DNA of 64,000 bases from an uncultured Actinomycetota bacterium (lineage in GTDB: Bacteria; Actinomycetota; Actinomycetes; JACCUZ01), in assembly GCA_963829565.1 (NCBI GenBank), contig CAWHJC010000017.1, forward strand, positions 28,797 through 92,796, read 5' to 3'. Shown here piece after piece: positions 31,127 through 62,922 of the stretch. The position numbers and the translations under genes were made by a program. The notes under the pieces were generated by a model that had not been told where the DNA came from, made no database searches, and saw nothing but the letters and a program-made list of their open reading frames with translations. The stretch's first letter is position 1; each line of letters starts with the position of its first letter.

Positions 31127-31164
31127 AGGAGACCAGCAACCCTGGACACAACCGTTTTAAGCGG

Positions 31165-31237
31165 TGGGCCCCGTCAGATTCGAACTGACGACCCGCGAAT
31201 TAAAAGTCCGCTGCTCTACCAGCTGAGCTAGAGGCCC
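31165..31237 (-). tRNA. tRNA-Lys (anticodon TTT)
   Basis: RC reads GGGCCTCTAGCTCAGCTGGTAGAGCAGCGGACTTTTAATTCGCGGGTCGTCAGTTCGAATCTGACGGGGCCCA: 7-bp acceptor stem, D/T arms, anticodon loop CTTTTAA. Confidence 0.85.
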
Positions 31238-50567: not shown

Positions 50568-50640
50568 GCCCTCATCGTCTAGTGGCCTAGGACGCTGCCC
50601 TTTCAAGGCGGTAGCACGGGTTCGAATCCCGTTGGGGGCA
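50568..50640 (+). tRNA. tRNA-Glu (anticodon TTC)
   Basis: GCCCTCATCGTCTAGTGGCCTAGGACGCTGCCCTTTCAAGGCGGTAGCACGGGTTCGAATCCCGTTGGGGGCA: cloverleaf with anticodon loop CTTTCAA. Confidence 0.85.
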
Positions 50641-50654
50641 CGGAAGCACAGCTA

Positions 50655-50729
50655 GGTCCTGTAGAGCAGCTTGGAGTGCTCGCCACCCTGTCAAGGTGGA
50701 GGTCGCGGGTTCAAATCCCGTCAGGACCG
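50655..50729 (+). tRNA. tRNA-Asp (anticodon GTC)
   Basis: GGTCCTGTAGAGCAGCTTGGAGTGCTCGCCACCCTGTCAAGGTGGAGGTCGCGGGTTCAAATCCCGTCAGGACCG: anticodon loop CTGTCAA. Confidence 0.85.
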
Positions 50730-50759
50730 CGGTGGGCCGGCGCGCTGGTGCCGGGCCTC

Positions 50760-50836
50760 GGCCAGGTAGCTCAGTTGGTACGAGCGTCCGACTGAAAATC
50801 GGAAGGTCGGCGGTTCGACCCCGCCCCTGGCCACCA
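50760..50836 (+). tRNA. tRNA-Phe (anticodon GAA), CCA encoded
   Basis: GGCCAGGTAGCTCAGTTGGTACGAGCGTCCGACTGAAAATCGGAAGGTCGGCGGTTCGACCCCGCCCCTGGCCACCA. Confidence 0.9.
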
Positions 50837-51986: not shown

Positions 51987-53150
51987 TTAGCTCAGCGCTG
52001 AGCCAGCCACCCACGTTGCCCACGGCACGTTCCACACGCCACCGAGGCCGTTCCACGACTCGGTCGGCCTGCCAGTGCCACGGGTGACCACCGGGTCGCC
52101 CTCCTTGACGCGGTCGTAGACCCAGTGCGCGGCGGACAAGGTGAGGTTGGTGCAGCCATGCGAGTAGTTCATGGTGCCGACGTACGGGTTCCACGGTGCA
52201 CCGTGCAGGAACTCCCCGGAGCTGGTGAGCCGCATGGCGTACGGCACGTCAAGGTCGTAGGCCTCCGAGCCGGTGATGCCGACCGTCGTGGAGCGCATCC
52301 GGTAGCTCTCGTGGGTGTCCATGATCACCTTGACGCCGGACCTGGTGGGGAACCCGGACTTGCCCAGCGAGACCCCGAAGGTGCGGATCCGCTCACCGTC
52401 CCGGGCGACGGTCATCCGGTGCTTGGCGTTCGACACCCGCATCACGAAGGCGCGCCCGATGCGGAACTCGCCGCCGGTGTCGCGCATGCCCCACACGCCC
52501 GGTGCCGCACGGACCTTGCGCAGGTCGGCGGTCACGGACACGGTGGTGTGCGCCGGCCAGAACGTCTTCGGCCGGAACTGCACGGTCCGCGACGAGGTCC
52601 ACGACCACGAAGCCGGGCCGATGTCGCGCCTCGTGGTGGCGCGCAGCGCCGCCTCGACCGCGGCCCGGCGGCGGACCGAGTGGTTGAACGTCACGACGAG
52701 CGGCCGGCCGACGCCGACGGTGCGCCCGTTCGGGCGAGATGGTGGCGCGCAGCACCTGCTCGGGCGCGCCGGTGCGCAGCGTGGTGTGCAGCGTCGCCGG
52801 CTGGCCGTCCGGGCCTACCGCCGTCGCGTCGAGCACGTAGGTGGAGCGGGGCACCAGGATTCCGGTGCTCACCCAGCGGGCCGCGGTGAGCTCGCCGCGG
52901 ACCTTGCGCCCGTCCACTTCGCCGTGAGGGTGGCCGACGTGAGGGTGCCGCCGGTGACCGTGACGCGGACCGGCTTGTCCAGCGACCACGCGGTGGCGCC
53001 GGCGGCCCCGCTCGCGATCAGCGGCGGCGGAGCCGCGGACGTGGTGGTCGAGGCGCCGTCCGCGGCCTGGACCTGGGGCACGGTGGCGCCGGCGAGGGCC
53101 AGCAGGAGCAGCGGCGCGACCAGCACCGTCAGGGGTCGTCGAGCGAGCAC
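51987..53150 (-). CDS. L,D-transpeptidase (YkuD domain) with signal peptide; frameshifted
   Basis: N-terminus MLARRPLTVLVAPLLLLALAGATVPQVQA (ORF 52869..53150), middle fragments in ORF 52393..53280, catalytic ...NYSHGCTNLTLSAAHWVY (ORF 51987..52694). Confidence 0.7.
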
Positions 53151-53318
53151 AGTGGGTGACTCCGGGTTCGCGGGCGATCAGTGGACAGGCGGTGCCGGGA
53201 AGGCCGCCGGGAGCGGCGCGCCGCGGCCATTGTGCCCTGGAAATGTCACAGACCCGCAATCTGCAGGCCGATCGGACCATACGGCCGGCGCCGGTACGGT
53301 CAGCCCGGAAGGAGGACC

Positions 53319-56300
53319 GTGCTCATCACTCATCGGGCCCTCCACGGGGACGAGCTCGCCCGTGGGCTGGCCGACGTGCTCGCCTCGCCCCCGGCCGACC
53401 CTTTCGCGGCCGAGGTGGTCGCGGTGCCGGCCAAGGGCGTCGAGCGCTGGATCGCGCAGCGGCTGTCGCACGTCCTCGGTACGTCGGCAGGTGACGGCGT
53501 CTGCGCCAACGTCAGCTTCCCGTGGCCGAGCACCCTGGTCGATGAGGCGCTCGCGGCCTCCTCGGCCGAGCACGCCGAGGCCGTCAGCGTTGGGCGCCCA
53601 GCGCGGTCGGTGTGGCCGCTGCTCGAGCGTCATCGACGCGTCGATCCCGTCGGAGCCGTGGTGCCGGTCGCTCGCGCAGCACCTCGGCATCGGCGCGCGA
53701 AGACAAGGGACGTCGGCTCGCAGTCGCACGGCGGCTGGCCACAATGTTCGACGAGTACGGACTGTCGCGACCGGAGATGCTGCGTGCCTGGGCGGCCGGT
53801 CGCGACGAGCGAGGCGACGGCACCCCGCTCGACGACGACCTCGCCTGGCAGGCCGAGCTGTGGCGCCGACTGCGCAGCCACCCTCGGCACCCCGAGCCCG
53901 GCCGAGCTGCTCGAGGACGCCTGCCAGCAACTCCGAGACCAGCCGCAGCTCAGCAACCTCCCCGACCGCATCTCGGTGTTCGGCGCCAGCCGGCTCTCCC
54001 CCGCGCGCCTCCAGGTCCTCGCCGCCCTCGCCGAGCACCGCGACGTGCACCTGTGGCTGCACCACTCCTCGCCCGCCCTCTGGGACACCGTCGCGCAAGG
54101 CGACGCCCGCCCTGCGCCGCAAGGACGACACCACCCGCAGCCGGCTGACCAACCCGCTGCTCACCAGCCTCTCCCGCGACGTCCTCGAGCTGCAGCAGCT
54201 GATCGCCCGCTGCGCCCCGGGCAGCCAGACCGTCCTGCACGACGTCAGCCGAGCTCCCCGACACCCTGCTCGGCCGGCTCAAGCAGGACCTCGCCGACGA
54301 CCGAGTCCACACGAGCCCGCCACAGCTGGCCGACAACGACCGCAGCGTCCAGGTGCACGCCTGCCACGGCCGCACCCGGCAGGTCGAGGTGCTCCGCGAG
54401 GTGATCGTCGGCCTGCTCGCCGACGACCCCACCCTCGAGCCGCGCGACGTGCTCGTCATGTGCCCGGACGTCGAGACGTTCGCCCCGATCATCGCGGCCA
54501 CCTTCGCGATCGGCGGCGAGGACGACGCCGCCCACCCAGCAGCCAAGCTGCGCGTCCGCCTCGCCGACCGCGCGCTGCGGCAGACCAATGCCCTGCTCGC
54601 CGTGCTGTCCCAGCTGCTCGAGCTCGGCACCGCCCGGCTCACCGCCAGCCAGGTGCTCGACCTCGCCGGCACGCCGGCCGTCCGGCAGCGGTTCGGGTTC
54701 GACGACGACGAGCTCGAGCGGCTGCGCGACTGGACGGTCGGCGCCGGCGTCCGCTGGGGACTCGACAACGAACCACCGCGCCACCTGGGCGCTCGGCGAC
54801 GTCGAGCAGGGCAGCTGGCGCGACGGGCTCGACCGGCTGCTGCTCGGCGCCGCCATGGAAGGTGCGCTCGACAGCTGGGGCGACGTCGTACCCCTCGACG
54901 ACGTCGACAGCTCGGACATCGACCTGGCCGGCCGGCTCGCCGAGCTGGTCGACCGGCTCGCCGCCGCGCAACAGCTCATGGCGACACGGCACACCGCGCA
55001 GGACTGGATGGCCGGGCTGGAAGACGCGGTCAGCGGGCTGGCCGCTACGACGTACGACACCGCCTGGCAGAGCTGCAGCTGCGCGGCGAGCTCGGCGACG
55101 ATCGCGGAGGCCGCCGAGGGCAGCACCGCGCTGCTCGGCCTCGCCGACGTCCGCGCCCTCCTCACGAGCAGCCTGGCCGGCCGGCCCACCCGGGCCAGCT
55201 TCCGCACCGGCACCCTCACCGTCTGCACCCTGGTGCCGATGCGCTCCGTGCCGCACCGCGTCGTGTGCCTGCTCGGTCTCGACGACGGCGTCTTCCCCCG
55301 GCAGAGCAGCCACGACGGCGACGATGTGCTGGCCCGCGACCCCTGGGTCGGCGAGCGCGACCCGCGCAGCGAGGACCGCCAGCTGCTGCTCGACGCGATC
55401 TGCGCGGCCGAGGACCACCTGGTCATCACCTACACCGGCGCCGACGAACGCACCGGCGCACCCGTGCCGCCGGCCGTCCCCCTCGGCGAGCTGCTCGACG
55501 CCCTCGACCGCACCGCCACCGCGCCGGACGGCAGCCGGGTCCGCGACGCCGTCACCACCCACCACGCGCTGCAGCCCTTCGACCCGCGCAACTTCGAGCC
55601 CGGGTCGCAGGGGCGCTCGTTCAGCTTCGACCCCTTGTCGTACGCCGGGGCGCTTGCCGCGGCAGCACCGCGGGTCGAGCCGGCCGCGATCGTCACCGCC
55701 CCGCTCCCGTCGCAGCCAGCCGCTGACGTCGACCTCGGCGAGCTGCGCCGGCTGCTCACCCATCCGGCCCGCGGCTTCCTCCGCCAGCGGCTCGGCGTCG
55801 CCGAGACGCGCGGCGAGGACGAGCCGGCCGACGCGCTGCCGGTCGAGCTGGACGCCCTCGAGCAATGGGCTGTCGGCGAGCGGGTGCTGCACGAGCGGCT
55901 CGCCGGTCTCGATCCCGCCGACTGCCTCGCCCTCGAGCAGCACCGCGGCAGCCTGCCGCCCGGCCCGCTCGGTGTCGCCCACCTGCTCGACATCGGGCCG
56001 AAGGTGGAGAACCTGCTGCTGGCCTCGACCTTCGAGCGCGAGCACCAGCCCGAGTCGCACGACGTCGACGTCCGGCTCGCCGACGGCACCCGGCTCACCG
56101 GCACCGTCGGCGGCGTCCGCGGTGACGTGCTGCTCTCGCTGACCTACTCGCGGCTGGCCGCCCGGCACCGGCTGCTGGCCTGGATCGACCTGGTCGCGCT
56201 GACCGTCGCCCACCCGGACCGCGGGTGGAGCGCAGTCGCCGTCGGCCGAGGCCGCGGCAAGGGCGCCCAGCGCAGCGTCTTCGACCCACTGCCCCCCAAC

Positions 56301-56663
56301 GACGCAGCCGCCGCGCTCGAGGAGCTGGTCGCGCTCTACCGCGCCGGGCTGCGGTCGCCGCTGCCGCTGCCGGTCAAGACCGCCGCCGCCTACGCCGGCC
56401 GCCGCAGCCACTCCGACGCACCGACCGCCCGGGAGGGCGCCGCCCGGGAGTGGGTCAGCGAGCGGCTACCCCGGCGAGCAGGAGGACGCCGAGCACGTCC
56501 TGCTCTACGGCGAGCAGGCGCCGCTGTCGGTGCTCACCACCCAGCGCCCCGAGGACGGCGAGGGCGGACCCGGCTGGCACCGCGACGAGACCGACCGGTT
56601 CGGTCTGCTCGCCCGCCGGCTCTGGGGCCGGCTGCTCGACGCCGAGACGCAAGTGCAGACCTG
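53319..56663 (+). CDS. recC: Exodeoxyribonuclease V gamma subunit RecC (multiple frameshifts)
   Basis: GGAAGGAGG RBS then GTG; VLITHRALHGDELARGLADVLASPPADPFAAEVVAVPAKGVERWIAQRLSHVLG (RecC N-terminus). Fragments across ORFs 53181..54404, 54353..55726, 54588..56765, 52315..56142. Ends ...LWGRLLDAETQVQT*. Confidence 0.8.
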
Positions 56664-56682
56664 ACCACACTGAACCGTCGAG

Positions 56683-57660
56683 CTACAAGGTCAGGGCGAC
56701 GCTTCCGTAGATGTCGATCGACGAGTCCGCCGGCCAGCCGGTCGAGTACGAATGGACGTAGATGACCGCGGCATCACCCGCGTGCAGGTGTACGGCCTGC
56801 TGCTCCGGCCACGAGCAGTCGTTCGACGTCGGGCCGTTCCCATCGACAGCGAAGATGCACCCGGCGGCCGGGACGAGCAGCGCTGTTCCACCCGAGGACA
56901 CCAGCAGCGTCAGCTCCACGATGAGGGGGTGACCGGCGAGATCCGTGGTGCTCCCGAAGTGCGCATACATGTTGGTGATCGTCTCGTCGTGGGCGATCAC
57001 CTGCTCCACGCTCGTGTGTGCGGCCTCGACAACCTCGGCGTCGATGTCAAGTCTCGGAGCGACCGCCTGCGTACCCAGGTAGCCGGACAACGGCAGGTAG
57101 GCGTCCGTGTCCGGATAGGGGTTGAGCGCGTGCAACGTGAACACGCCGCTCGACACCAGGCCTCCGGGACCGGCCGGGCCGGTCTCGCCGTCCTCGCCGT
57201 CCGCGCCGGCCAAGCCATCCGCCCCAGCGGCGCCGTCCGCGCCGTCCGCGCCGTTCGTCCCATCGGCACCAGCGGGGCCGGTCAGCCCGGGTGAAGCGTC
57301 CGCACCACGCGCCCCGGTGACTCCTGAAGGACCCGGGGCGCCGACAGCGCCGATGGCCCCAGTCGTTCCCGGGGCGCCTGCTGCCCCGGCGCGTCCCCTC
57401 CGGCCCTTGGCGTTCCAGGTCACGCGAACCGATCCCGCCGGGCAGGCCTTGCGCCACTCCGGACTCCTGACGACGTTGAACACCACGCGGTCACCAGAGG
57501 TGACGAGACATCCGGAGAACTCGACGCGCGACGCCACCCGTGTGGGACCCGGCGTCGAACTGAATGCAGGAGCCAGTCCCACACCGCCGATGAGCAGTGC
57601 TGCGATACCGACGGCTGCCACAGCCCGTCGATGGTTCAACCACTTCAGCCGAGAGATCAC
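56683..57660 (-). CDS. Secreted collagen-like protein: signal peptide + ~31 Gly-X-Y triplets + C-terminal globular domain
   Basis: Intact 325-aa ORF: MISRLKWLNHRRAVAAVGIAALLIGGVGLAPAFS signal peptide ...GRAGAAGAPGTTGAIGAVGAPGPSGVTGARGADASPGLTGPAGADGTNGADGADGAAGADGLAGADGEDGETGPAGPGG then a 160-aa Cys-containing C-terminal domain. The plus-strand antisense ORFs are compositional junk. Confidence 0.75.
   Translation of the reverse strand: MISRLKWLNHRRAVAAVGIAALLIGGVGLAPAFSSTPGPTRVASRVEFSGCLVTSGDRVVFNVVRSPEWRKACPAGSVRVTWNAKGRRGRAGAAGAPGTTGAIGAVGAPGPSGVTGARGADASPGLTGPAGADGTNGADGADGAAGADGLAGADGEDGETGPAGPGGLVSSGVFTLHALNPYPDTDAYLPLSGYLGTQAVAPRLDIDAEVVEAAHTSVEQVIAHDETITNMYAHFGSTTDLAGHPLIVELTLLVSSGGTALLVPAAGCIFAVDGNGPTSNDCSWPEQQAVHLHAGDAAVIYVHSYSTGWPADSSIDIYGSVALTL
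57181..57402 (-). repeat. Collagen-like GXY triplet-repeat tract (coding)
   Basis: Strict 3-nt periodicity with Gly at every third codon within the 56683..57660 CDS. Confidence 0.7.
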
Positions 57661-57792
57661 TGGGGTACCCCTGAATCACGATGTGCGCGGGCCGGCCGAA
57701 GGCGGATGTCGGCGGAGGCCACCGACACCCTCCTATCGGCACCGAGCAGAGGAACAATGAGGCGCCACGCCACAATGTGGGCAGCGCGACAG

Positions 57793-61130
<3,338 letters not shown>

Positions 61131-61134
<4 letters not shown>

Positions 61135-62922
61135 CGCGACCCACGACGCATCACTCGCGCTGCGGCGCGACGGGCTGCTCGCGGCGTTCAACCGGGCCGG
61201 GATCCTGTCGGCCGCCGACGTGCACGTGGCGCGCCGGCTCGGGGCGATCGGCGGCGAGACCGACGACGCGGTGCTGCTCGCGGCCGCGCTGGTGGTGCGG
61301 TCGACCCGGCACGGCTCGGTGGTGCTCGACCTCGCCACCGCGGAGGAGACCACCAGCCCGGACGTCGACGACGAGGCCGAGGGCCCGGTGGTCGACGTGG
61401 CGCTGGACTGGCCGGACGACTGGGTCGCGCGGTGCGCCGCCAGCCCGCTGGTCGGTGGACCGCTGCGGATGGCCGGCACGCGCGTCTGGCTGGCGAGGTA
61501 CTGGGACCAGGAGGAGCAGGTCGCGGGTGAGCTGCTGGGGCGGTCGGCGACCCGGCCCGGCCGACCTCGACGAGGCTGTCCTGACCGCCGGGCTGGACCG
61601 GTTGTTCGACGCAGGCGTCGACGACGACCAGCGGCTGGCGGCCGACGAGCTGCGCACTGTCGCGGGTGAGCGTGCTCGCCGGTGGACCCGGCACCGGCAA
61701 GACCACCACGGTGAGCCGGCTGCTGGCGCTGCTGCGCGAGCAGCACCCGGACTGGCGCATCGCGCTGGCCGCACCGACCGGCAAGGCCGCGGCCCGGCTG
61801 GAGGAGGCGGTGCGCACGTCGACGGCCACGTTGACGCCGGCGGACCGAGCGCGGCTCGGCGACCTGCCCGCGACGACGCTGCACCGGCTGCTCGGCTGGC
61901 GCCCCGAGGCGCGCAGCCGGTTCCGGCACGACCGCACCAACCGGCTGCCGGTCGAGGTGGTGGTGGTCGACGAGGCGTCGATGGTGTCGCTGACGATGAT
62001 GGCGCGGCTGCTCGAGGCACTGCGGCCATCCACCCGGCTGGTGCTGGTCGGCGACCCCGACCAGCTCGCGTCGGTCGAGGCGGGCGCCGTCCTGGGCGAC
62101 CTGGTCGACGCGCAGTCCGGCGTCGCCGTCGCGGCCCTGTCGACCAACCGGCGGTTCCCGGCGACCAGCGGCATCGCGCTGCTCGCCGCAGCCGTGCAGG
62201 ACGGTCGCGGTGACGACGCGCTCGACGTGCTGCGGTCGGCGGACACCCCCGAGGTGGAGCTGGTCGAGGTCGCCGACGACGCGCCGCTCACGGCCGACCA
62301 GCTCGACGGCGTACGCGCCGACCTCGTCGTCAGCGGCACCGCGCTGCTCGAGGCGGCCGAGCGCGGTGACCGGGTCGCCGCCCTCGAGGCGCTGGACCGG
62401 CACCGGCTGCTCTGCGCTCACCGCCGCGGACCGCGCGGCGTGCAGCACTGGGGCGCGCTCGCGGCGCGGTGGATCGCCGACGAGCGACCGGTGGTCCCAC
62501 GGGCGGACGGGAGGTACGCCGGCGAGCCGCTGCTGGTCACGGCGAACGACTACGAGATCGGGCTGTACAACGGCGACACCGGCGTCGTGGTCGACGACGG
62601 CGAGGGCGGGCTCGTGGCGGTGTTCGGCCGCGGCGGCACGCCGATCCCGGTGTCGCTGGTGCGGCTCGGCGCCGTGCGGCCGCTGCACGCGATGACCGTG
62701 CACCGCAGCCAGGGCAGCCAGTTCGCGCGGATCTCCGTGCTGCTCCCGCCCGCCGGGTCGCCGCTGGGCACCCGCGAGACGCTCTACACCGCGGTGACCC
62801 GGGCGACCGACCACGTCCGGGTGGTCGGGTCGCCCGAGGCTCTCGTCGAGGCGGTCGGCCGCCCCGCAGCCCGCGCGACCGGTCTCCGGGACCGGCTCAG
62901 CCGTGCGCGACCTGCACGGTGA
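61131..62922 (+). CDS. recD: Exodeoxyribonuclease V alpha subunit RecD (two frameshifts)
   Basis: GTG overlapping the recB stop (GTGA). ...VSVLAGGPGTGKTTTVSRLLALL... (Walker A), ...VVVDEASMVS..., ...MTVHRSQGSQF... (motif V). ORFs 60542..61669, 61455..62213, 61666..62922. Confidence 0.8.

What the first reader, a model, noticed from the sequence alone, without database searches (positions are those of the whole stretch)
56683..57660. Collagen-like (Gly-X-Y)31 secreted protein gene inserted antisense between recC and recB
recC, recB and recD are normally contiguous and co-transcribed. Here a 978-bp minus-strand gene sits in the 1.1-kb gap between the recC stop (56663) and the recB start (57793). 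It encodes a protein with a clean N-terminal signal peptide, an uninterrupted ~93-residue collagen triple-helix-type GXY tract rich in GAxGAxGxDG triplets, and a 160-aa C-terminal globular domain. Bacterial collagen-like proteins (Scl, BclA, Bucl) form trimeric surface fibres and are sporadic and horizontally mobile. One lodged inside the recBCD operon is unusual. It implies either insertion that split an operon, with recB needing its own promoter in the 130-bp gap 57661-57792, or an uncharacterised surface or exosporium-like fibre protein in an actinomycete. The gene itself is frameshift-free in a window where most long genes are not.
Basis: seen in the sequence. Interest (0 to 1): 0.75.

Follow-up and report, generated by a model that had tools for sequence, protein, structure and literature searches.

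The report
Collagen-like gene in recC–recB hotspot
A real gene for an exported collagen-like fibre protein with a jelly-roll head sits between recC and recB, but in this group of uncultured actinobacteria that junction is a general hotspot holding different accessory genes in different genomes, so the case is interesting but not exceptional.

Summary
The 325-aa minus-strand ORF (56683-57660) is real. It has an N-terminal signal-like segment and a small two-Cys region. A Pfam-significant collagen tract follows, with 27 Gly-X-Y triplets and one Gly-to-Ala break, not 31 uninterrupted. The conserved 156-aa C-terminal domain is predicted with confidence (pLDDT 87) as a TNF/C1q/BclB-like jelly roll.

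About 20 homologues exist, all from metagenomes. The head domain has almost no other sequence relatives among 1.84 billion representative proteins.

The flanks are recC and recB/recD. In more distant relatives, and some close ones, the recC stop and recB start overlap (GTGA/ATGA). In the window's clade, that exact point carries 1-7 kb of varying cargo: PNPOx, RibD_C, SnoaL, TetR, DinB-like, toxin-antitoxin, NERD, a sigma factor and a secreted beta-helix protein.

The collagen-like gene recurs there in four independent metagenome lineages and also occurs at unrelated loci. It always carries a conserved ~110-nt upstream leader.

It is best read as accessory cargo of a recombination hotspot, comparable to E. 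coli recC-ptrA-recB. The lack of frameshifts is not significant. This is a new member of a known kind, of moderate to low interest.

The parts
53313..56664 (+). recC (RecBCD gamma subunit), read in at least 5 frame segments; stop codon 56662-56664
   Evidence: Pfam Exonuc_V_gamma and RecC_C. tblastn of intact RecC from L015/L016 maps to frames 3,1,2,3,1. Tail translation ends ...LLDAETQVQT*.
56665..56682 (.). 18-nt spacer between the convergent stop codons of recC and the collagen-like gene; no convincing terminator
   Evidence: Sequence. Folding z-scores +0.45/+0.50. No terminator-like site here. The same tight convergent arrangement (25 nt) occurs in metagenome contig L044.
56683..57660 (-). 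Collagen-like protein gene, 325 aa, GTG start preceded by AGGGG (57668-57672), TAG stop
   Evidence: About 19 homologues at 59-73% identity, several spanning nearly the full length.
56686..57153 (-). C-terminal head domain (aa 170-325): all-beta jelly roll with conserved Cys268/Cys282; orphan at sequence level
57154..57405 (-). Collagen-like tract (aa 86-169): 12 GXY + Ala-Ser-Pro break (57289-57297) + 15 GXY; Ala-rich X positions, Asp-rich Y positions, 7 Pro
   Evidence: 9-nt periodic DNA repeat at 57168-57275. Tract length varies from 17 to 34 triplets among homologues whose tract is complete.
57406..57561 (-). Small N-terminal region (aa 34-85) with conserved Cys51/Cys73; three low-confidence beta strands
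   Evidence: Alignment A1. Full-length AF2 model gives pLDDT 40-55 here. A similar N-terminal module occurs in P0020, which has a different C-terminus.
57562..57660 (-). Signal-like N-terminus (aa 1-33): basic n-region with invariant Arg-Arg, hydrophobic aa 13-31, conserved Ala-Pro-Ala
   Evidence: Hydropathy maximum 2.14 at residues 13-31. Conservation in A1. No signal-peptide predictor was available, so Sec versus Tat versus membrane anchor is unresolved.
57661..57775 (-). Conserved ~110-nt upstream leader of the collagen-like gene, containing a long imperfect hairpin (core 57692-57740); fills almost the whole gap to recB
   Evidence: Alignments A3/A4. Fold z = -3.3. The motif is present upstream of the gene in every locus holding its 5' end and nowhere else. 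Identity to the window is 77-89%, comparable to the CDS. No Rfam family.
57793..61130 (+). recB (RecBCD beta subunit), read in at least 8 frame segments; start ATG 57793 inferred
   Evidence: Pfam UvrD-helicase, UvrD_C and PDDEXK_1 pieces. tblastn of intact RecB from L015/L016. N-terminal length matches relatives.
61130..62922 (+). recD (approximate start)
   Evidence: Pfam RecD_N, AAA_19/AAA_30, UvrD_C_2. 87-93% identical to recD of relatives.

Best explanation
The ORF encodes an exported, probably trimeric, collagen-like fibre protein.

Proposed mechanism:
- The N-terminal signal-like segment takes the chain across the membrane.
- The C-terminal TNF/C1q/BclB-like jelly-roll head trimerises and nucleates zipper-like folding of the roughly 27-triplet Gly-X-Y tract. 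This gives a stalk of about 24 nm.
- The small two-Cys N-terminal region lies at the cell-proximal end, and the head is the distal, ligand-facing tip.

The gene has no functional link to RecBCD. It is one cargo gene of a clade-specific insertion hotspot lying exactly between the recC stop and the recB start, which ancestrally overlap (GTGA/ATGA). Different genomes of the clade carry different accessory genes there. The gene plus its ~110-nt conserved leader behaves as a unit that is also found at unrelated loci.

In this window the insert is antisense. It therefore removes recC-recB translational coupling. recB must be expressed either from a promoter in or near the 132-nt gap, or by read-through antisense to the collagen-like gene.

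Shown: gene reality, domain layout, fold prediction, hotspot comparison, recurrence, conserved leader.
Inferred: export, trimerisation, surface location, stalk length, consequences for recB expression.
For: Gene and domains:
- ORF and Pfam Collagen above threshold.
- About 19 homologues, with invariant or near-invariant head residues and two conserved Cys pairs.
- Head model pLDDT 86.8.
- Foldseek PDB top hits are ExsFA/BxpB, TNF ligands and C1q-like proteins (E 2e-5 to 1e-3).
- The best BFVD hit is a 'BclB C-terminal domain' protein (TMq 0.65, E 9e-8). Many giant-virus collagen-repeat proteins follow.
- Stalk length varies from 17 to 34 triplets in homologues, as is typical of collagen-like fibres.

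Hotspot:
- The distance from the end of the conserved RecC_C block to the recB N-terminal motif is about 280-330 nt in 5 close-clade and 17 distant loci that show both genes. It is 1412 nt in the window, 1622-6968 nt in L015, L016, L017, L022 and L023, and more than 6.8 kb in L014.
- GTGA/ATGA overlaps are seen in the uninterrupted junctions.
- Cargo annotation.

Recurrence of this gene next to recC: L007, L044, L045, L048.
Other contexts: GH4/BadFG, L046 and L047.
Lower GC in the non-repeat parts of the insert: 0.66-0.69 against 0.74-0.78 in the flanks.
Precedent: E. coli recC-ptrA-recB, attributed to horizontal transfer (PMC12342828).
Trimerisation domains nucleate collagen folding (PMC8968730; abstract of PMC11923368).
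Against: - No multimer prediction could be run.
- The Gly-X-Y tract is poor in Pro (7 of 84) and rich in Gly-Ala-Asp, and it has one Gly-to-Ala break. Triple-helix stability is unproven.
- No signal-peptide predictor was available. No LPXTG motif, lipobox or other anchor is present, so a surface location is a guess.
- No promoter-like site was found.
- Evidence for the leader as a structured RNA is weak: 3 of 24 pairs show compensatory change and the covariation term is +0.33.
- The mechanism of the hotspot (homologous exchange using recC/recB as arms, or illegitimate insertion) is inferred from scars only.
Confidence: 0.7

Rival explanations
1. The gene is a remnant of a prophage or phage-like element: a tail-fibre or receptor-binding protein with a collagen-like shaft and a jelly-roll tip, left behind at an integration site.
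For: PHROG tail-fibre families match at E down to 4e-18. Fold hits include phage lambda tail-tip, cyanophage tail-fibre and phi812 spike domains. Many uncultured-phage proteins appear in BFVD.
Against: - All PHROG matches cover only residues ~80-170, the Gly-X-Y tract. The head and N-terminus give no hit.
- No phage genes are present in any of the contexts examined.
- The leader motif is absent from the viral contig collection.
- The protein has a signal-like N-terminus, which is unusual for tail fibres.
Confidence: 0.08
2. The gene is functionally tied to RecBCD. For example, its antisense transcription could tune recC/recB expression, or its product could act with the island's toxin-antitoxin and NERD genes in a defence role that monitors RecBCD.
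For: The gene recurs next to recC in five lineages, always convergent with recC and sometimes only 18-25 nt away. Toxin-antitoxin and NERD genes share the island. The leader occupies the whole gap to recB.
Against: - The same gene with the same leader occurs at unrelated loci: GH4/BadFG, EAL-LuxR, NUDIX.
- Most clade members lack it at the junction.
- There are no PADLOC hits for it or its neighbours.
- An exported collagen-like fibre has no evident role in DNA metabolism.
Confidence: 0.07
3. The ORF or its position is an artefact: a chance open frame in 72% GC DNA, a repeat-induced assembly artefact, or a chimeric join in an error-prone long-read assembly.
For: The window shows many frame changes in recC and recB. 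High-GC DNA gives many long spurious ORFs on all strands. The Gly-to-Ala break and a CCCC/CCC difference before the start codon could be base-calling errors.
Against: - Several homologues from independent samples span nearly the full length and show a coding-type conservation pattern.
- The head model is confident.
- GC3 exceeds GC1 and GC2.
- The same recC-adjacent convergent arrangement occurs in independent contigs (L044, L007, L045, L048).
Confidence: 0.02

Closest known systems
BclA/BclB exosporium glycoproteins of Bacillus (collagen-like stalk with C1q/TNF-like trimeric C-terminal head) and their giant-virus look-alikes
   Same: The layout is the same: short N-terminal part, variable-length Gly-X-Y stalk and a roughly 150-aa all-beta jelly-roll head at the C-terminus. 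The best structural match in BFVD is annotated 'BclB C-terminal domain' (TMq 0.65). C1q-like and TNF ligands are among the PDB hits. Stalk length is polymorphic.
   Different: There is no sequence match to BclA/BclB C-domain models. The protein has a signal-like N-terminus instead of the exosporium-targeting N-terminal motif. The host is an uncultured actinobacterium with no evidence of an exosporium. Triplets are Ala/Asp-rich rather than Gly-Pro-Thr.
Streptococcal Scl1/Scl2 and Legionella Lcl collagen-like adhesins
   Same: These are exported bacterial surface proteins with a Gly-X-Y stalk and a globular trimerisation domain. NCBIfam models match the tract.
   Different: Scores of 34-45 bits are far below the cut-offs of 325-500 and cover the repeat only. 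There is no LPXTG motif. The globular domain is C-terminal here, whereas Scl has an N-terminal V domain (PMC8968730).
E. coli recC-ptrA-recB-recD locus
   Same: A gene for an exported protein unrelated to DNA repair interrupts recC and recB, and is attributed to horizontal transfer (PMC12342828).
   Different: ptrA is co-oriented with recB and co-transcribed with it, and the recB ribosome-binding site lies inside ptrA. Here the insert is antisense and divergent from recB, and the junction is polymorphic among close relatives rather than fixed.
Flexible genomic islets or integration hotspots between conserved core genes
   Same: The borders are precise (recC stop, recB start). Content differs among related genomes, with toxin-antitoxin modules, regulators and small enzymes. 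Scars of deletion and partial duplication are present (L024, L048).
   Different: No integrase, tRNA or repeat-bounded element is present. The hotspot splits a translationally coupled pair of subunits of one enzyme.

Membership tests
Collagen triple-helix repeat proteins (Pfam PF01391) / bacterial collagen-like proteins | Gly-X-Y tract recognised above the curated threshold | tested here: met
   44.2 bits against a cut-off of 27.2, residues 85-140 plus a second stretch. 27 GXY triplets.
Collagen triple-helix repeat proteins (Pfam PF01391) / bacterial collagen-like proteins | Uninterrupted Gly at every third residue | tested here: not met
   One Ala-Ser-Pro triplet at residues 122-124. Homologues with a complete tract are uninterrupted, so a base-calling error is possible.
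Collagen triple-helix repeat proteins (Pfam PF01391) / bacterial collagen-like proteins | Forms a trimeric triple helix nucleated by an adjacent non-collagenous domain | not testable with these tools
   Only monomer prediction was available. The tract is unstructured in the monomer model.
BclA/BclB-type (C1q/TNF-like headed) collagen-like proteins | C-terminal jelly-roll head of TNF/C1q topology | tested here: inconclusive
BclA/BclB-type (C1q/TNF-like headed) collagen-like proteins | Sequence match to BclA/BclB C-terminal domain models | tested here: not met
   No Pfam or NCBIfam hit on residues 170-325 even at E<=1. No PDB sequence relative at E<=10.
BclA/BclB-type (C1q/TNF-like headed) collagen-like proteins | Exosporium-targeting N-terminal motif, no signal peptide, spore-forming Firmicute host | tested here: not met
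   The N-terminus is a basic and hydrophobic signal-like segment. Relatives of the host are Actinomycetota MAGs.
Scl1/Scl2 LPXTG-anchored collagen-like adhesins | Score above the NCBIfam equivalog cut-off, plus a C-terminal LPXTG sorting signal | tested here: not met
   44 bits against cut-offs of 325/400, on the repeat only. The protein ends ...IDIYGSVALTL with no LPXTG.
Phage tail fibres with collagen-like shafts | Homology outside the Gly-X-Y tract and a phage structural-gene neighbourhood | tested here: not met
   PHROG matches are confined to residues ~80-170. The head and N-terminus have none. No phage genes are in any context.
recBCD locus (recC-recB-recD) | Flanking genes are recC, recB and recD in that order | tested here: met
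   Pfam domains. Co-linear tblastn with intact relatives.
recBCD locus (recC-recB-recD) | Adjacent or overlapping recC stop and recB start (translational coupling), as in relatives | tested here: not met
   Here 1128 nt separate them, against GTGA/ATGA overlaps in L013 and L018-L021.
Known RNA families (Rfam 15) for the conserved leader | Match at or near a family's gathering score | tested here: not met
   Only tRNAs at gathering. Only chance-level eukaryotic miRNA/snoRNA hits appear in the permissive scan.

The most novel reading that the evidence does not exclude
In this uncultured actinobacterial clade, the recC|recB boundary may be a dedicated gene-exchange site. The two highly conserved RecBCD genes would serve as homology arms for swapping accessory cassettes between strains. 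The collagen-like gene would be a self-contained cassette, consisting of a conserved ~110-nt structured leader (possibly a new cis-regulatory RNA) and a fibre protein with a previously unseen head-domain sequence family. That cassette would move between this site and others. Its antisense placement would force recB onto a new promoter and could create convergent or antisense interference with recC.
Probability: 0.25. Interest if true: 0.5.

Novelty: new member of a known kind. Interest (0 to 1): 0.35.

Why it matters
- It adds a small, previously unnamed family of actinobacterial collagen-like proteins. The head domain has a known fold class but no detectable sequence relatives.
- It shows that the recC-recB junction can behave as a polymorphic insertion hotspot in a natural clade, although the two genes are usually treated as a fixed, coupled pair.
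- That bears on how RecBCD subunit stoichiometry is kept when coupling is broken. It offers a natural parallel to the E. coli ptrA interruption.
- For annotation practice, it is a reminder that in error-prone long-read MAGs an intact 1-kb gene among broken long genes is not a signal by itself.

Tried and rejected
- Exact-sequence look-up of the protein: not on record.
- Metagenome-collection scans with the head-domain profile and with the leader motif: both found nothing. That collection evidently lacks the JGI contigs that hold the homologues.
- Viral collection scan for the leader: none.
- AlphaFold-database fold search: library unavailable.
- Sigma-70 promoter scan of 56300-58100: none. The single terminator-like hit (57791-57763, minus strand) lies upstream of the gene and is not interpretable.
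- Hairpin between the convergent stops: no better than shuffles.
- Flanking direct repeats or att-like sites around the insert: only short chance-level matches.
- PADLOC defence models on the gene and island neighbours: none.
- Full-length AF2 monomer: uninformative for the N-terminus and stalk.
- Considered that the conserved leader is an N-terminal coding extension, as some database gene calls assume (for example P0007). Rejected because the loci differ by 1- and 2-nt indels there, and an AGGGG Shine-Dalgarno-like motif sits 7 nt before the GTG.
- My first impression that the leader is more conserved than the CDS was not borne out: 77-89% against 77-83%.

Full report
**Observation**

The minus-strand ORF at 56683-57660 exists. 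It is 325 aa, starts with GTG and ends with TAG. An AGGGG motif lies 7 nt upstream of the start. Codon-position GC is 0.69/0.59/0.80, which is coding-like for a 72% GC genome.

Pfam Collagen (PF01391) scores 44.2 bits against a curated cut-off of 27.2. NCBIfam Scl and Lcl models match the repeat only, far below their cut-offs.

The Gly-X-Y tract covers residues 86-169. It has 12 triplets, then Ala-Ser-Pro, then 15 triplets. That is 27 GXY with one Gly-to-Ala break over 84 residues, not 31 uninterrupted triplets.

The flanks are recC, recB and recD by Pfam. They are co-linear with intact homologues. The recC stop is at 56662-56664, 18 nt from the convergent stop of the ORF. The ATG at 57793 gives recB the same 7-codon lead-in to the PEPFDLL motif as in relatives.

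**Assembly quality**

Against intact RecC and RecB from relatives, the window's recC changes frame at least 4 times and recB at least 7 times.

The closest genomes are uncultured Actinomycetota MAGs. Many are 'MFD' MAGs, which come from Nanopore-only assemblies polished with Medaka (PMC12313526). Several of those loci show the same kind of split matches.

At roughly 1.5-2 frame changes per kb, a clean 978-bp gene has a 15-25% chance expectation. The 1.25-kb recD core is also clean.

Two details could be base-calling errors: the Gly-to-Ala break, and a CCCC run (CCC in all other loci) just before the start codon.

**The protein family**

A search of 5.8 billion proteins gave about 19 homologues at 59-73% identity. 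All are from metagenomes. The next hits drop sharply to matches that cover only the repeat.

The alignment shows the following features:
- A conserved basic and hydrophobic N-terminus with an invariant Arg-Arg and an Ala-Pro-Ala motif.
- A small region with two conserved cysteines.
- A Gly-X-Y tract of very variable length: 17-34 triplets in homologues whose tract is complete.
- A well conserved head of about 156 aa with two more conserved cysteines.

An exhaustive profile search of the head against 1.84 billion cluster representatives found only 8 proteins. The head has no Pfam, NCBIfam, PHROG or PDB sequence match. It is a sequence orphan.

**Fold of the head**

AlphaFold2 with 12 sequences gives an all-beta model with pLDDT 86.8 and pTM 0.85.
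- Foldseek against the PDB ranks Bacillus exosporium ExsFA/BxpB, TNF ligands and C1q-like domains first. E-values are 2e-5 to 1e-3, but TM-scores are only 0.35-0.47.
- Against predicted viral structures, the best match is a 'BclB C-terminal domain' protein (TMq 0.65, E 9e-8). Many giant-virus collagen-repeat proteins follow.

The head is therefore a jelly roll of the TNF/C1q/BclB kind, at moderate confidence. A full-length monomer model is informative only for the head.

**The junction in relatives**

A scan of one genome per species with the RecC C-terminal domain returned 31 loci. I measured the distance from the end of the conserved RecC_C block to the recB N-terminal motif.
- It is about 270-330 nt in all 17 distant loci that show both genes, and in five closer ones: L013, L018, L019, L020 and L021.
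- In those five, the recC stop overlaps the recB start as GTGA or ATGA. This is the ancestral, translationally coupled state.
- In the window's inner clade the distance is 1412 nt (window), 1622 (L015), 2695 (L016), 3169 (L022), 4560 (L017), 6968 (L023) and more than 6.8 kb (L014).

The inserted genes differ from genome to genome. They include:
- PNPOx-like and RibD_C proteins.
- MDMPI/DinB-like, TetR and a Phd/ParE toxin-antitoxin pair.
- SnoaL/DUF4440 and an ODP metallo-beta-lactamase-fold protein.
- An ECF-type sigma factor and NERD proteins.
- A secreted NosD-like beta-helix protein, and proteins I read by eye (not scanned) as a cyclase and a TerC-like membrane protein.

None of these 31 loci holds the collagen-like gene. 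L024 has a normal-looking spacing but carries the last ~85 nt of the RibD_C gene joined onto a truncated recC. This is a deletion scar.

A rough neighbour-joining tree of 680 nt of recC confines the islands to the inner clade. Uninterrupted and scarred members are interspersed among them.

**Recurrence of the collagen-like gene**

Contigs of the metagenomic homologues show the gene next to recC, convergent with it, in four further lineages:
- L007: recC, Pyridox_ox_2, collagen-like gene, PIN/Phd, NERD.
- L044: 25 nt from recC, as in the window, with SHOCT and DUF1269 upstream.
- L045: two Pyridox_ox_2 genes, DUF1269 and SHOCT lie between.
- L048: a NERD-Excalibur gene lies between, plus a duplicated remnant of the last ~20 recC codons next to the collagen-like gene.

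These come, with sequence detail.

Other homologues sit in unrelated contexts:
- After GH4 and BcrAD_BadFG genes.
- Beside PIN, DUF4352, PNPOx and NUDIX genes.
- Beside an EAL-LuxR regulator and a Pyr_redox_2 enzyme.

The non-repeat parts of the insert have GC 0.66-0.69, against 0.74-0.78 in recC and recB. No integrase, tRNA or bounding repeat is present.

**A conserved leader**

The ~110 nt upstream of the gene (57661-57775, minus strand) aligns across every locus that holds the gene's 5' end, whatever the genomic context. Many columns are invariant, and the 1- and 2-nt indels argue against coding.

A 49-nt degenerate motif taken from it is found once per locus, always upstream of this gene. 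It occurs once in the window and never in the other loci or in the viral collection.

The region folds into a long imperfect hairpin (z = -3.3). Covariation is weak: 3 of 24 pairs show compensatory change. No Rfam family matches. Its identity to the window is 77-89%, similar to the CDS at 77-83%.

It is constrained and travels with the gene. Whether it is an RNA element or a promoter/operator region is open. It fills almost the entire 132-nt gap to recB.

**Interpretation**

The gene most likely encodes an exported collagen-like fibre with a trimeric jelly-roll head at the distal end. The head is expected to nucleate folding of the stalk, as trimerisation domains do in other collagens (PMC8968730; abstract of PMC11923368). 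At about 0.29 nm per residue (textbook value), 84 residues give roughly 24 nm.

Export, trimerisation and surface location are inferred, not shown. The invariant Arg-Arg raises the possibility of Tat export, but no model supports it.

The genomic position reflects a clade-specific hotspot at the recC|recB boundary, not a functional link to RecBCD. E. coli provides a fixed, co-oriented precedent in recC-ptrA-recB-recD, which is thought to result from horizontal transfer (PMC12342828).

In relatives where the cargo next to recB is co-oriented, its stop abuts or overlaps the recB start (L015, L016, L023). Coupling may be re-created there. In the window the antisense orientation excludes that. recB must use a promoter near the leader, or read-through antisense to the collagen-like gene. 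No consensus promoter or terminator was found.

**Rivals**

- A phage tail-fibre remnant is unlikely. PHROG matches cover only the repeat, and no phage genes accompany any homologue (and the context calls).
- A role tied to RecBCD is unlikely, given the unrelated contexts, the absences and the lack of defence-model hits.
- An artefact is excluded by independent homologues, several near full length, and by independent contigs with the same arrangement.

**Verdict**

The finding is real, but its framing needs correcting. It is a new member of the known class of bacterial collagen-like proteins with a jelly-roll head. It is lodged as one of many alternative cargoes in a recC|recB insertion hotspot.

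The hotspot and the conserved leader are the more original observations. Interest is moderate to low (0.35).

Noticed in passing
window 57661-57775 (minus strand); also L007:1372-1476, L044:1137-1242, L047:648-752, L001:5105-5212: A ~110-nt upstream region with a long imperfect hairpin is conserved with the collagen-like gene in every genomic context. It occurs nowhere else in the window or loci, and no Rfam family matches. It may be a new leader RNA or an operator region.
   Followed up: partly
L013-L024 (recC|recB junctions), especially L014:760-7553, L015:10940-12110, L016:10943-13340, L017:10943-15240, L022:10740-13850, L023:10905-17600: The point between the recC stop and the recB start carries 1.3 to more than 6.5 kb of different accessory genes in different species-level genomes of one uncultured Actinomycetota clade. 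More distant relatives have a 4-nt GTGA/ATGA overlap.
   Followed up: yes
L024:10800-10978: The last ~85 nt of a RibD_C-type gene (as in L015 and L022) are fused to a 3'-truncated recC, followed by a 32-nt palindrome. This looks like a deletion scar of a former island, although a long-read assembly error is not excluded.
   Followed up: partly
L048:830-1100: Between the collagen-like gene and a NERD-Excalibur gene lie a 17-bp-stem palindrome and a duplicated remnant of the last ~20 codons of recC (...LLARRLWGRLLDAQTTVQT*). The true recC end lies further on at 2219-2353. This is a footprint of stepwise insertion at the recC terminus.
   Followed up: partly
L016:13063-13345 and L023:17310-17595: The stop codon of a ParE-like toxin gene (part of a Phd/ParE pair) overlaps an ATG (TGATG) just upstream of recB. 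The toxin-antitoxin module may therefore be co-transcribed and translationally coupled with recB in those genomes.
   Followed up: no
window 53313-61130: recC (at least 4) and recB (at least 7) frame changes relative to intact relatives. Similar split matches occur in several 'MFD' long-read MAG loci. This is consistent with indel errors rather than pseudogenes, but was not checked against reads.
   Followed up: partly
window 57661-57667: A CCCC run where all seven other loci have CCC (CGC in one), immediately before the GTG start. It is probably a homopolymer error. With CCC, an upstream GTG (used by some database gene calls) would be in frame.
   Followed up: partly
P0020 (334 aa, NCBI-derived, alignment A1): A more distant collagen-like protein shares the signal-like N-terminus, the Arg-Arg and the two-Cys module. 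It has a 52-triplet tract and an unrelated C-terminus. The N-terminal module may be a wider export or anchoring unit for actinobacterial collagen-like proteins.
   Followed up: no
window 50568-50836 and 51987-52694: A tRNA-Glu/Asp/Phe cluster and a YkuD-type L,D-transpeptidase gene (minus strand) lie upstream of recC. A separate tRNA-Lys is at 31163-31237.
   Followed up: no
P0121 (159 aa) and P0123 (157 aa): These two short proteins are the only more distant matches to the head-domain profile (E 3e-24 and 4e-4). They could be stand-alone head domains or fragments.
   Followed up: no
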